DNA of 64,000 bases. Source: Negaprion brevirostris. Lineage: Eukaryota. The position numbers are program-made. The DNA is taken from NCBI GenBank assembly GCA_030324005.1, contig JARDVH010000084.1, positions 31,566,653-31,630,652 of the forward strand, in the 5' to 3' direction. Of the stretch, positions 31,801 through 34,800 are shown in pieces; within the stretch, counting starts at the first letter, position 1, and every line of letters starts with the position of its first letter.

Positions 31801-34800
31801 CATGATGTGGAGATGCCAGCGTTGGACTGGGGTAACACAGTAAGAAGCCTCACAACATCAGGTTAAAGTCCTACAGGTTTATTTGCTAACACAAGCCACT
31901 AGCTTTTGGAGCACTTGCTGCCCCTTCATCACCTGATGATGGTGATGAAGGAGCAGCGTTCTGAAAGCTAGTGGCTTGTGCCACCAAATAAACCTGTTGG
32001 ACTTTAACCTGATGTTGTGAGGCTTCTTACTGAAACTTTGCAGACAGTTTATTGACTCTGGGAGCTGCATTTTGGAACCTAATCTAACGTAATGCATTTG
32101 CAATATGGCTTTTTGGAAATCTAATTAAGCAACCATTAGGTGTTGACGTCTTATAGCATTTATAACTGCTCAGGTTTTTAAATTGCATTTTCTTACAAAC
32201 AGAAGAAATTATGGGAATGAGGAAATGGCAGAGATTTTGAACAAGTATTTCGTGTCTGTCTGAAGGCACAAATTACATACCATTTTTGGCGGTAAATCAA
32301 GGGATTAATAGGAGTAAGGAATTCAAAGTAATTGAAGAGGAAGGAGTACTAGAGAAATTTAAGGGATTATGAGGGAACAGATCCCTCGGTTCTGATCTAC
32401 ATCCCCGGGTGCTGATAGAGGTAGCTGAAGAAATAGTAGATGCACCCACTTATAATTTTCCAAAATGCTCTATATTTTTAAAGTCCTATCAGTTTGGCAG
32501 ATAGCAAATGTAACACTGCTATTCAAGAGAGCAGATGGAGAGGAAACAGGGAACTACAGGCCCTTTATCCTGATATCTGTCAGCAGAAAAATGCTGGAAT
32601 CTATTACGAAGGAATTATCTGTTAACAAAGCGCTAGGTAACTTGTAGCATGTTCAGCTAAAGTCAACATCGTTTAAGAAAGAGAAATTCTGTTTGAAAAT
32701 TTCATTTCTTGAGAATGTAACTATTAGGCTAGATAAAGGGAAGCCAATAGTTTTCCAAAAGGCATTTGAAAAGGTACTACACTAAAGGTTAATATGCAAG
32801 ATAAGGGCTTGTGGAGTAGGAGTGTAGTATATTAACAAGCTAATGGACAGAAAGCAGAGAGTAGATATAAATGGGATATTTTCAAGTTGGCAGTCTGTAA
32901 TGATTAGAGTACTGTAAGGGTCAGTGCTGGTGCAGATTTTTACAATCTACATTAATGACTTAGACAAAAAGACCCAGCATAGTGTATCTTGCTTGCTGGT
33001 GACACAAAGCTGGTTGGAAATGTAAACTGGGGAGAGGACACAGAGGCTGCAGTGATAGAGACATACTGGGGGGAACTTTTCTGTCCTGCCTGCCACAGGA
33101 ATCACAGCAGGCCGGGGGGGGAATCAAGCAAAGATCTGTTGACCTCGGGTAGGATTTTCCAGTTATGGAACGAGATTGGCCAGAAAATCCTGCCCATTGA
33201 GTGGGCAGATGGAGTATACTGTGGGGACATGAGATTCTTCACATTGCGAGTAAGAATAGAAAAGCAGAATGTGTTTTAAAAGATATGAAACCTTTAAATA
33301 TTTATGTTCGAGCAGACAATGTATACTTGTACCAGGAACACACACAATTAGCACAATAATACAGGATGCAATTAAGAAGGCAGTTGGCACATTGACTTTT
33401 ATTGTTAAGGGATTGGAGGACAAAACAAGAAAGTCTTGCTACAATTGTATGCAACTTCTGTGAGACTGCATCTGGAGTACATTACACAGTTTTGATCTCC
33501 ATATTTAAGGAAGGATTACTTGTCTAGGAGGTGGTACAGTGAAACTTCATTAGGTTGGTTTTGAGGAAGAGGACTTTGCCCTCTGATGCGAGGCTGAGTA
33601 GACAGTGCCCAAACTCTCTATAACTTAGTAGAATGAGAAGTGATTTTCCTGAAATGCATAAGATTTTGAAGGGCCTTGATATGATGGACTTTGACAGATT
33701 GTTCTCTCAGCTAGAACATGGGGAAAGAATCTCAGGGTAAGGGGTTAATTATTTAGCACTGACATGGGGACAAATTTCTTCACACAGATGGTTGTGAATC
33801 TTTAGAATTATTTTCCCCAGAGGGTTGCGGCTGGTCCCCCATTGAACATGTTCAAGATGGATCTCTTAGAATCAGGATCTAAATGGAGCGAATAGAAAAT
33901 GGAGTAAGGCCAAAGATTGGCCGTGATCATATTGAATGGCAGAGGAGACTTAAGGAACATACGGTCTATTCCTGTCTCTAATTCTAATGTTCTTATTGTG
34001 GTTTAGATAATAACTTTGGATATATGGAGTAATGAAATTTCATTCAAATTTCACTGTTGTGAGTCATTAACAAATACAACAGACTCAGAAGCTCTGTGCA
34101 CATCCACAACAACCCCTCTCCTCTCCAGAAAAAGTACAGTCTACTTCAGATTCCTTCTAAATTTGTAGCACAGATTTAGGTTTCCATCCTCTTCAGTGAA
34201 ACATTTAAAAATTTTGGTCTGTTTTAACAAGCAGTGTCAACAATTGGTAGTTTGGTTTGATGCAGGTAGGTTTGAATGTTAAGCTCAAAGATCTCAAGAC
34301 CAAAAGTTATATTTGAAAGTAACAGTAACATTTAAGATGTTTTGCTGTTGGAATATCACTTGTTCAATACAATGTGTTCATCTGTGTGAAGCATATTATT
34401 TTACTAAAAGTAGGTTGAGACAAAGTCAACTATTGACCTTTACTCCAGTGCAAAGCATTAGTTACAGATCCTATTTGTATTAAATACAAATCACTTTAAT
34501 GCTATTTCAGAACAATTTTTGAACATTTTGAGAACAGTTCATTTATTTTCTCAAGGAGCTCAACTATAAATACCGATTAACAGAAAATCTCTACGCTGGC
34601 ATGTATTTGGGGATAAAATGGATGAAGTAGTTAGTTAAAAATTATATTGTTGCCCGTAAAGGATGATTTGGGTATTTAAACTATTAGAAAAAAACAAATG
34701 ACGTAACTGCTTTTTCATACTTTGTTTACTTAGACCACCACACTGGTTCTCCCTTAGCCAGCCCAATGTCACCACGTTCCTTGTCATCCAATCCATCCTC

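What the first reader, a model, noticed from the sequence alone, without database searches (positions are those of the whole stretch)
31801..32032. Miniature palindromic Penelope-derived element forming a long hairpin about 40 nt downstream of a MAST2 splice donor
Seen: a 230-bp element made only of two inverted copies (about 95 bp each) of the Penelope-like terminus found at 4905-5030 and 6240-6328. It has a one-sided tail (atgatgtggagatgccagcgttggactgg) and a flanking tgaaactt repeat. Both arms share variants (agcct, acatca) that the 4.9-kb arm and the main 52.3-kb arms lack, so they derive from one template. The same architecture recurs independently at 52255-52510. Established: Penelope-like elements make inverted terminal-repeat structures and carry minimal hammerheads. 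Inference: this is a recurrent non-coding, MITE-looking retro-product (hairpin plus ribozyme motif on both strands). It may be a non-autonomous family and may affect splicing or ADAR editing beside exon 31544-31759.
Basis: partly seen in the sequence, partly recalled or inferred. Interest (0 to 1): 0.7.

Follow-up and report, generated by a model that had tools for sequence, protein, structure and literature searches.

The report
Truncated inverted Penelope insertion in intron
A 230-base hairpin-forming repeat just after a MAST2 exon in a shark is the decayed footprint of one Penelope-like retrotransposon insertion, an ordinary product of how these elements integrate.

Summary
Two inverted arms (31838-31933 and 31941-32032) are about 91% alike. 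There is a 36-nt tail on the left arm only and a TGAAACTT target-site duplication. The RNA hairpin folds at -163 kcal/mol (z -20.9). It begins about 40 nt after the donor of an exon that is 95-97% identical to shark MAST2.

The arms are the 3' end of a Penelope-like element (PLE). A larger insertion of the same build at 4905-6328 still encodes the C-terminus of a reverse transcriptase plus GIY-YIG endonuclease protein.

All three complete insertions in the window have two head-to-head 5'-truncated copies, a tail at one end and a 6-8 bp duplication. Published work describes this as the standard PLE insertion signature, so it is not a new class.

The hammerhead motifs are relics. Both arms of this element lack C3, and only 1 of 6 arms in the window keeps an intact core. 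Rfam finds no hammerhead.

The two short palindromes differ in their central junction, outer end and sequence. That fits independent events better than a family that copies itself. A genome-wide count could not be run.

One point is worth following up. All four short arms stop within 8 nt of the 5' edge of the ribozyme.

The parts
31544..31759 (+). MAST2 coding exon (216 nt), acceptor ag at 31542-43, donor cag|gtaagg at 31759/31760
   Evidence: The translation is 97% identical to shark MAST2 proteins. The alignment to P0024 residues 948-1021 ends at ...LMIPS, which is the donor.
31787..31794 (.). Left copy of the target-site duplication TGAAACTT, 28-35 nt after the exon
   Evidence: Read directly. 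The identical 8-mer is at 32031-32038.
31795..31801 (.). 7 extra bases (ggtagcc) between the duplication and the tail
   Evidence: Read directly. The other two insertions have 4 and 3 unrelated extra bases at the same place.
31802..31837 (-). One-sided 36-nt 'tail' of the left arm (element sense is on the - strand)
   Evidence: It aligns to the tails at 4905-4941 and 52476-52512 and is absent from the three partner arms.
31838..31933 (-). Left arm: the last ~96 nt of the PLE terminus, sense on the - strand, with its outer end at CAGTAAG
31896..31932 (-). Hammerhead relic of the left arm. It has C3->G and G12->A, a 6-bp helix II, and no helix I 5' strand.
   Evidence: There is no Rfam hammerhead match.
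31934..31940 (.). 7-nt centre (TGATGAT) of the palindrome, lying inside the CUGAUGA box region
   Evidence: and direct reading.
31941..32032 (+). Right arm: the same terminus, sense on the + strand, ending at CTTACTG without a tail
31942..31974 (+). Hammerhead relic of the right arm. It has C3->G, a 5-bp helix II, an intact GAAA, and no helix I 5' strand.
32031..32038 (.). Right copy of the target-site duplication TGAAACTT. Its first two bases overlap the arm end.
   Evidence: Read directly.
4893..6336 (.). Sister insertion of the same build.
- Duplication AGGATAGG: 4893-4900 and 6329-6336.
- Tail: 4905-4941.
- Left arm: 4942-~5912, sense on -. It is interrupted by another repeat and by the N run 5358-5724.
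- Right arm: ~5915-6328, sense on +, no tail.
   Evidence: Inverted arms. Coding remnants match the C-terminus of the RT plus GIY-YIG protein P0012.
52249..52521 (.). Second short palindromic insertion.
- Duplication TTCAGG: 52249-54 and 52516-21.
- Left arm: 52255-52345, sense on -, no tail.
- 5-nt spacer: 52346-50.
- 27-nt sense filler copied from the terminus: 52351-77.
- Right arm: 52379-52475, followed by the tail 52476-52512.
   Evidence: The right arm holds the only hammerhead with an intact core (52381-52417).
59988..60016 (+). 3' end of a fourth copy, cut by the N run 59978-59987. It ends at CTTACTG(TGG) without a tail.

Best explanation
The 230-bp element is the footprint of a single, old integration of a Penelope-like retrotransposon (PLE) that carries a C-terminal GIY-YIG endonuclease. 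It sits in a MAST2 intron of a shark.

Mechanism. At integration the element's enzyme cut both target strands with a 6-8 bp stagger. DNA copies of the element's 3' end were then laid down from both sides. One copy started at the distal start site and so includes the 36-nt tail. The other started at the proximal site (CTTACTG|) and has no tail. Both copies stopped after about 95 nt, at the 5' edge of the hammerhead motif, and were joined head to head. The alternative route to the same product is self-priming of a single cDNA.

Outcome. The result is a near-perfect palindrome with no coding capacity and no working ribozyme. It has since diverged by about 9% between arms.

What is shown: the anatomy, the PLE origin, the single-event character (a duplication flanks the whole unit) and the sister relation of the arms.

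What is inferred: priming on both strands, taken from published biochemistry on a lizard PLE, and selective neutrality. In the MAST2 pre-mRNA the element must form a stem of about 95 bp, and that is its only plausible present-day activity.
For: Anatomy:
- Inverted arms, a 7-nt centre, a hairpin with z -20.9, a one-sided tail and the TGAAACTT duplication.
- 3 of 3 complete insertions of this terminus in the window share the same build: two head-to-head copies, a tail at one end only, and a 6-8 bp duplication outside the tail.

PLE origin:
- The interior of the 4905-6336 insertion encodes, on opposite strands, the last ~95 and ~41 residues of a protein.
- These match the Heptranchias perlo protein P0012 at 83% over 46 aa, 66% over 41 aa up to its C-terminus, and 79% over 14 aa including AWYIGKT.
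- P0012 has a Pfam RVT_1 domain. Its relative P0013 has Pfam GIY-YIG at 25 bits against a cut-off of 22.6.

Arm relationships and outer ends:
- Arms within an insertion are 91.1%, 86.7% and 84.7% identical. The 12 comparisons between insertions give 79.5-85.5%.
- The 4.9/6.3 pair also shares a 7-nt deletion.
- The tail-less boundary falls at the same base (CTTACTG|) in 31.9R and 6.3R, within 3 nt in the 60.0-kb piece, and 7 nt short in 52.3L.

Literature:
- PLE insertions are highly 5'-truncated, often carry an adjacent inverted 5'-truncated copy, and have a 30-40 bp tail often at one end only (PMC8557442, passages).
- Inverted pLTRs occur with palindromes at the head-to-head junction, with 8-10 bp duplications and a 31-bp tail (PMC3846280, passages).
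- A purified PLE protein cleaves and extends both DNA strands. It starts reverse transcription at two adjacent internal sites, with the tail lying between them, about 85-92 nt downstream of the hammerhead cut site (PMC11167929, main text).
- In this element the two ends lie 62 and 98 nt after the inferred cut site (counted).

Hammerhead motif:
- The motif fits the published PLE minimal hammerhead: an extra base between positions 9 and 10.1, a G10.1-C11.1 pair, and a palindromic AGCU at 15.1-16.1 (PMC4209133; table).
- Helix II is paired in 29 of 30 cells, against 35-46% in slid controls.
Against: - Rfam finds no hammerhead. There were 0 matches at gathering score in the whole window. None of the 14 matches with E<=10 in 31750-32100 is a hammerhead, and none of the 13 in 52200-52560.
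- The helix covariation is not significant with six sequences. 52 of 500 shuffles reach the observed score.
- The PLE assignment of the 31.9-kb element rests on its homology to the ends of the 4.9-kb insertion. It has no coding sequence of its own.
- The RT clade was not placed in a tree.
- Two-sided priming and self-priming cannot be told apart here. The central 11 nt (CC-TGATGAT-GG) match neither arm's native continuation and remain unexplained.
- For the 4.9/6.3 pair, arm identity (84.7% on the terminus, 77% over 362 columns) is no higher than some comparisons between insertions.
- The four short arms all end within 8 nt of one position. Plain random truncation does not predict that.
- No genome-wide copy count was possible.
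Confidence: 0.8

Rival explanations
1. It is a member of a non-autonomous, palindromic 'retro-MITE' family. A master hairpin unit is transcribed and copied as a whole by PLE enzymes acting in trans. In that case the 31.9-kb and 52.3-kb elements would be copies of such masters.
For: - Two short palindromes lie within 21 kb of each other, and all four arms stop within 8 nt of the hammerhead 5' edge.
- Both arms share variants.
- PLE pLTR sequences can mobilise foreign inserts in trans (PMC3846280).
- Non-autonomous PLE derivatives, the non-LTR retrozymes, exist in vertebrates including one chondrichthyan (bioRxiv 10.64898/2026.07.22.740005, abstract and Results).
Against: - The centres of the two elements differ: 7 nt against 5 nt plus a 27-nt filler.
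- Their tail-less outer ends differ by 7 nt.
- Arms between the two elements are only 79.5-83.3% identical, against 86.7-91.1% within an element.
- The tail-less end coincides with the tail-less end of the coding-bearing 4.9-kb insertion. A start-site rule explains this. A transcribed hairpin master does not.
- Published retrozymes are direct tandem repeats, not inverted ones.
- A 95-bp perfect RNA hairpin should be a poor template. This last point is inference.
Confidence: 0.12
2. It is a DNA-transposon MITE, for example hAT-like, with long terminal inverted repeats that begin with CAG and an 8-bp target duplication.
For: The arms begin with CAGTAAG and end with CTTACTG. The duplication is 8 bp at 31.9 kb and at 4.9 kb.
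Against: - The duplication does not flank the left repeat. In 3 of 3 insertions it lies outside the 36-nt tail plus 3-7 extra bases.
- The same repeats bound an insertion whose interior is two head-to-head reverse-transcriptase/endonuclease C-termini, not a transposase.
- The third duplication is only 6 bp.
Confidence: 0.02
3. The hairpin has been taken over by the host, either as a microRNA or siRNA precursor or as a structured splicing or editing element of MAST2.
For: - The RNA hairpin is long and very stable and lies on the transcribed strand, with its stem starting 79 nt after the donor.
- Rfam microRNA-precursor models align to it: MIR5380 at 63.4 bits and MIR5062 at 51.6 bits.
Against: - Those Rfam scores are far below the gathering scores of 150 and 140 bits. 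They are plant or unrelated families that match the hairpin shape only.
- The arms have drifted apart by 9% plus an indel, with most changes in the inner stem, as expected without constraint.
- No expression or conservation data could be examined.
Confidence: 0.04
4. It is an assembly or sequencing artefact, namely a chimeric fold-back read.
For: The window holds many N runs and one clear duplication flanking a gap (6290-6345 = 6446-6501). PLE structures are known to trouble assemblers (PMC8557442).
Against: The arms differ at 8 positions and by a 4-nt indel. A tail is present on one side only, and a target duplication flanks the unit. No N run lies within 4 kb.
Confidence: 0.01

Closest known systems
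Canonical EN+ Penelope-like element insertions (pseudo-LTRs, an inverted 5'-truncated copy, and a one-sided 30-40 bp tail), as described for Penelope/Poseidon, Neptune, Naiad and the Adineta vaga Pen families
   Same: - Head-to-head inverted copies.
- Extreme 5' truncation.
- A 36-37 nt tail at one end only.
- A 6-8 bp target duplication.
- A minimal hammerhead upstream of the 3' end.
- A GIY-YIG endonuclease C-terminus in the longer sister copy (literature).
   Different: Both copies are truncated so far that nothing but about 95 nt of terminus remains. There is no ORF and no direct pLTR pair. The clade of the RT was not determined.
PAc (Poseidon of Anolis carolinensis) in vitro integration, Frangieh et al. 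2024, PMC11167929
   Same: - Both target strands are used as primers.
- There are two alternative start sites for reverse transcription, with the tail between them.
- The start sites lie some tens of nt downstream of the hammerhead: 62 and 98 nt here, against 85-92 nt for the main PAc site.
- C3G abolishes ribozyme activity in PAc, and both arms here carry C3G.
   Different: - In PAc the ORF starts at stem II of the hammerhead and the start sites lie inside the ORF. Here the hammerhead lies about 200 nt after the stop codon, and no ORF start is visible in the terminus.
- The PAc start region is AC-rich, and this one is not.
- Nothing was tested biochemically here.
Non-LTR retrozymes, which are tandem hammerhead repeats regarded as non-autonomous PLE derivatives (bioRxiv 10.64898/2026.07.22.740005; Cervera and De la Pena 2014, PMC4209133)
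   Same: Short, non-coding, derived from a PLE terminus, and carrying a type-I minimal hammerhead. In Schistosoma, pairs of minimal hammerheads on opposite strands 100-700 bp apart were noted.
   Different: Retrozymes are direct tandem repeats thought to act through circular RNA. This element is an inverted pair with dead ribozyme cores, and the motifs lie only about 10 nt apart.
MITEs of DNA transposons
   Same: Small size, terminal inverted repeats, a flanking duplication and hairpin potential.
   Different: The duplication lies outside an asymmetric tail. The repeats are retroelement 3' ends, so the origin is reverse transcription and not excision and insertion.

Membership tests
Penelope-like elements (EN+, C-terminal GIY-YIG) | Encodes a reverse transcriptase followed by a GIY-YIG endonuclease | tested here: met
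   This was met for the sister insertion, not for the 230-bp element itself. The window fragments match residues 549-562, 563-608 and 603-643 of P0012, which has RVT_1 at 183-309 and ends with the endonuclease region. The relative P0013 passes the Pfam GIY-YIG cut-off. The 31.9-kb arms are homologous to that insertion's ends.
Penelope-like elements (EN+, C-terminal GIY-YIG) | RT belongs to the PLE/telomerase-related clade | not tested
   No tree was built and no reference PLE RTs were on hand. The window holds no RT part of this element.
Penelope-like elements (EN+, C-terminal GIY-YIG) | Insertion build: 5'-truncated copies, an adjacent inverted copy, and a 30-40 bp tail at one end | tested here: met
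   3 of 3 complete insertions in the window show it, with tails of 36-37 nt. The definition comes from PMC8557442 and PMC3846280.
Penelope-like elements (EN+, C-terminal GIY-YIG) | Short target-site duplication | tested here: met
   TGAAACTT (8, or 6 if the overlap is discounted), AGGATAGG (8) and TTCAGG (6).
PLE minimal type-I hammerhead ribozyme | Conserved core CUGAUGA ... GAAA ... UH | tested here: not met
   Not met in the 31.9-kb element. Both arms have C3G, and the left arm also has G12A. Across the window 1 of 6 arms (52.3R) has every core position. Rfam reports no hammerhead.
PLE minimal type-I hammerhead ribozyme | Extra base between positions 9 and 10.1, a long helix II closed by G10.1-C11.1, and a palindromic 15.2-16.2 | tested here: met
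   - The extra A is present in 6 of 6 arms.
- Helix II is 5-6 bp in 5 of 6 arms.
- Position 10.1-11.1 is G-C in 4 arms and G-U in 2.
- AGCU at 15.1-16.1 is present in 4 of 6 arms.
- The covariation is not significant with n = 6.
PLE minimal type-I hammerhead ribozyme | Self-cleavage | not testable with these tools
   This needs in vitro transcription. Published PLE hammerheads cleave poorly or need protein.
Non-LTR retrozymes | Direct tandem repeats of a hammerhead-bearing unit | tested here: not met
   The copies are inverted, not direct. The only direct-tandem trace is the 27-nt filler ahead of the 52.3-kb right arm.
MITE (DNA transposon derivative) | Target duplication directly flanking the terminal inverted repeats | tested here: not met
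   On one side the duplication is separated from the repeat by 43 nt at 31.9 kb, 41 nt at 4.9 kb and 40 nt at 52.3 kb. The separation is the tail plus extra bases.

The most novel reading that the evidence does not exclude
The short palindromes may not be randomly truncated insertions. They could be a defined by-product of PLE integration, namely run-off cDNAs.

Proposed route. Reverse transcription starts at the two start sites of the upstream pseudo-LTR. It runs only to the true 5' end of the element's transcript, which would lie at the 5' edge of hammerhead helix I, where there is an initiator-like TCACTCA. Because both target strands prime, each such event leaves a 200-260 bp hairpin.

Supporting detail. 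The 27-nt filler at 52.3 kb would then be a template jump from that RNA 5' end to the 3' region of a second RNA.

Consequence if true. Shark genomes should hold a large, uniform class of such 'strong-stop' palindromes. They would map the PLE transcription start and would seed long double-stranded RNA in many introns.
Probability: 0.2. Interest if true: 0.45.

Novelty: new member of a known kind. Interest (0 to 1): 0.22.

Why it matters
As it stands this is an ordinary decayed transposon footprint. Its practical value is for annotation. Repeat libraries and gene builders should recognise such PLE palindromes, because public shark gene models already carry pieces of this element's endonuclease.

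It is also a clean, small natural example of the one-sided tail and the two-start-site rule recently shown in vitro for a lizard PLE. That extends the rule, by anatomy only, to a cartilaginous fish.

If the coincident inner ends reflect a real RNA 5' end, genome-wide counts of such palindromes would give a simple read-out of PLE transcript structure. They would also give a catalogue of intronic double-stranded RNA sources.

Tried and rejected
- Rfam, three searches. No hammerhead appeared at any threshold used. The microRNA-precursor matches were rejected as hairpin-shape matches far below the gathering scores.
- Pfam on the short window fragments and on the exon alone. Nothing significant came up. 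Identity was then obtained from homologous proteins.
- Covariation test of the hand-drawn hammerhead. The structure beats the slid controls but not the shuffles (52 of 500), so it is reported as weak support only.
- Profile search of the window for more diverged copies. The only extra hit, 58970-59013 at E 0.0012, reads as a different repeat and was dropped.
- The RT fragment at 56411-57360 was tested as a possible body of this PLE. It has no similarity to P0012 (best E 0.34) and was rejected.
- The bacterial-type promoter and terminator scan does not apply to a vertebrate intron. It found nothing and carries no weight.
- Literature searches for a described ORF-less palindromic PLE family or for shark PLE derivatives. 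They found the general PLE structural papers but no description of such a family. That holds only for the library searched.
- I tried to explain the central 11 nt by snap-back of the native cDNA or by a copy of the tail end. Neither fits cleanly, and it is left unexplained.

Not done:
- Genome-wide copy count, orthologous loci in other sharks, and RNA-seq.
- The genome-contig scan (bacteria and archaea), the phage, plasmid and E. coli collections, structure prediction, complex prediction and the atlas were not used, because none bears on this question.
- The MAST2 exon was searched alone.
- The N runs were left as they are.
- Paper supplements were not opened. The supplementary hammerhead alignments of PMC4209133 and the retrozyme tables of the bioRxiv preprint (closed) might contain this family.

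The window is not human. Its best protein matches are to sharks, and PLEs are reported absent from mammals.
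Full report
**What is there**

Positions 31838-31933 and 31941-32032 are inverted copies of one sequence, separated by 7 nt. The tool reports 78 nt at 90% and 17 nt at 94% complementarity. In the same orientation the arms are 91.1% identical, with one 4-nt indel. 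As RNA on the + strand, 31790-32045 folds into a single long hairpin of -163.1 kcal/mol. Shuffled sequences average -71.2, z is -20.88, and 0 of 200 shuffles do as well.

Left of the left arm lie 36 further nt (31802-31837) that the right arm lacks. Next come 7 unrelated bases, then TGAAACTT (31787-31794). The same 8-mer follows the right arm at 32031-32038 and shares its first two bases with the arm.

The exon 31544-31759 ends in cag|gtaagg. Its translation is 97% identical to MAST2 of Chiloscyllium plagiosum, Scyliorhinus torazame and S. canicula. That search returned 1240 proteins with E<=0.001 among 1892 candidates, and one of the top hits is named MAST1. The alignment to the S. torazame protein stops exactly at the donor. 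I searched this exon alone and built no joined exon model. The window is shark-like, not human.

**What the repeat is**

A 22-mer from the arm occurs 7 times in the window, against 0 expected. BLAST and a profile built from the arms find six full arms, one 27-nt internal piece, one piece cut by an N run (59988-60018) and an assembly duplicate.

The six arms form three insertions, and all three have the same plan.
- 4893-6336 carries the duplication AGGATAGG and a tail at 4905-4941. Its left arm runs to about 5912 with its sense on the - strand, and its right arm runs from about 5915 to 6328 with its sense on the + strand and no tail.
- 31787-32038 is the element under study.
- 52249-52521 carries the duplication TTCAGG. 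Its tail-less left arm is 52255-52345, and its right arm 52379-52475 is followed by a 37-nt tail.

The first insertion is long enough to show its origin. On the - strand it encodes RKACPEAWYIGKT and QMLRQRMN...VSVLQGGL. On the + strand it encodes ...AEQKLIAEFCTHEDGLNWDFGFTSHYL, followed by a stop. These match residues 549-562 (79%), 563-608 (83%) and 603-643 (66%, up to the C-terminus) of P0012, a 643-aa Heptranchias perlo protein. P0012 has a Pfam reverse-transcriptase domain, and its relative P0013 passes the Pfam GIY-YIG threshold.

A reverse transcriptase followed by a C-terminal GIY-YIG endonuclease is the coding plan of canonical Penelope-like elements. The arms of the 31.9-kb element are thus the last ~95 nt of such an element. 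The RT clade was not placed in a tree.

**Hammerhead**

Rfam reports no hammerhead, either at gathering score in the whole window or at E<=10 around the two short elements. The hits there are microRNA-precursor models far below threshold, and they match only the hairpin shape.

By hand, the arms carry UCAC-CUGAUGA-A-(helix II of 5-6 bp)-GAAA-GC-UA|GUGG. This agrees with the features Cervera and De la Pena list for metazoan PLE minimal hammerheads: an extra base after position 9, a G10.1-C11.1 pair, and palindromic positions 15.2-16.2 (PMC4209133, text read).

Helix II pairs in 29 of 30 cells, against 35-46% when the partners are slid. With six sequences the covariation score is reached by 52 of 500 shuffles, so this is weak support.

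Only 1 of 6 arms (52.3R) keeps every core position. Both arms at 31.9 kb read GUGAUGA and lack the helix I 5' strand, and the left arm also has AAAA in place of GAAA. C3G abolishes cleavage in the Anolis PLE ribozyme (PMC11167929). The phrase 'ribozyme motif on both strands' should therefore read 'two dead relics'.

**How it arose**

The published picture of PLE insertions has these parts.
- Heavy 5' truncation.
- Often an inverted 5'-truncated copy next to the main copy.
- A 30-40 bp tail, often at one end only (PMC8557442).
- Head-to-head inverted pLTRs with palindromes at the junction and 8-10 bp duplications (PMC3846280).

Frangieh et al. showed that a purified PLE protein cuts and extends both target strands. 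It starts reverse transcription at two adjacent internal sites, the tail is the stretch between them, and the sites lie some 85-92 nt after the hammerhead cut site (PMC11167929).

The 31.9-kb element fits this point for point.
- The + strand of the left arm and the - strand of the right arm are both antisense, as expected for cDNAs primed from the two nicked target strands.
- One arm starts at the tail end and the other at CTTACTG.
- These ends lie 98 and 62 nt after the inferred cut site.
- The tail-less end falls at the same base in 31.9R and 6.3R, within 3 nt in the 60-kb piece, and 7 nt short in 52.3L.

Arms within an insertion are closer to each other (91.1%, 86.7%, and 84.7% plus a shared 7-nt deletion) than to arms of other insertions (79.5-85.5% across 12 pairs). 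Both arms of an insertion therefore came from one source at one time.

The older alternative is self-priming of a single cDNA followed by endonuclease resolution (PMC3846280). It gives the same product and cannot be excluded. The centre CC-TGATGAT-GG fits neither arm's native continuation and stays unexplained.

**Family or independent events**

Within the window the two short palindromes differ in three ways. Their centres differ (7 nt, against 5 nt plus a 27-nt sense filler). Their tail-less outer ends differ, and their sequences differ.

Two facts argue for caution. First, n is 2. Second, all four short arms end within 8 nt of the 5' edge of helix I. At 52.3 kb the filler looks like a jump from an RNA 5' end to the 3' region of another template. 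This suggests a defined RNA 5' end there, and I give that as the most novel reading still open.

A DNA-transposon MITE is excluded, because the duplication lies outside the asymmetric tail in 3 of 3 insertions. An assembly artefact is excluded by the arm differences and the duplication.

**Present-day effect**

Nothing suggests selection. The differences between the arms cluster in the inner stem. In the MAST2 pre-mRNA the element must form a stem of about 95 bp beginning 79 nt after the donor. From general knowledge, such stems are substrates for RNA editing and for double-stranded RNA processing. I could not test this.

**Verdict**

The element is an ordinary, extremely truncated Penelope-like insertion of the known inverted-copy-plus-tail kind, so it is a new member of a known kind and of low interest.

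The genome-wide census, the repeat-library comparison, the orthologous loci and the transcript data remain unchecked, because no eukaryotic collection was available. The N runs were not filled.

Noticed in passing
window 6290-6345 and 6446-6501: An exact 56-nt duplication lies on both sides of the 100-N run 6346-6445, covering the end of the PLE arm and its flank. It looks like an assembly gap-flank artefact.
   Followed up: partly
window 56411-57360 (+): This is a reverse-transcriptase fragment (Pfam RVT_1, E 5.8e-10) followed by an ALKBH8_N match. It has no similarity to the PLE protein P0012, so it is a different retroelement.
   Followed up: partly
window ~5275-5357 and ~58801-58860: The left arm of the 4.9-kb insertion is interrupted by another repeat. 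Its reverse complement recurs near 58.8 kb, and both copies abut N runs.
   Followed up: no
window 31802-31931 (-), 4905-5032 (-), 52378-52512 (+): In all 3 tail-bearing arms the tail segment AGUCCAAC can pair with GUUGGACU of the core (8 bp). The enclosed hairpin contains the tail-less boundary. The tail end CAUCA can also pair with UGAUG of the hammerhead box. This may be the enzyme's recognition structure. With 3 sequences there is almost no covariation.
   Followed up: partly
proteins P0002, P0016, P0017: Public shark gene models named septin 5a, follistatin-related protein 5 and IQ domain-containing protein K contain the PLE endonuclease segment at 74-83% identity. These are probably transposon pieces built into gene models.
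   Followed up: no
window 59988-60016 (+): This is the 3' end of a fourth copy of the terminus. It has no tail and directly follows the 10-N run 59978-59987, so its structure cannot be read.
   Followed up: partly
window 25749-25973 (-) and 27872-28117 (-): Two open frames share YFFPKVGESKARG..F.VRGERYKRVQRG, which marks another interspersed repeat family. Neither has a Pfam match.
   Followed up: no
window 31929-31951: The palindrome centre holds three TGATGA/TCATCA units in alternating orientation (TCATCA-CC-TGATGA-TGG-TGATGA). The two bases that replace C3 and the base 5' of it (position 2.1) in both arms (GG) are the complement of the other arm's CC. The junction therefore lies inside the ribozyme box, and neither simple model of joining accounts for it.
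   Followed up: partly
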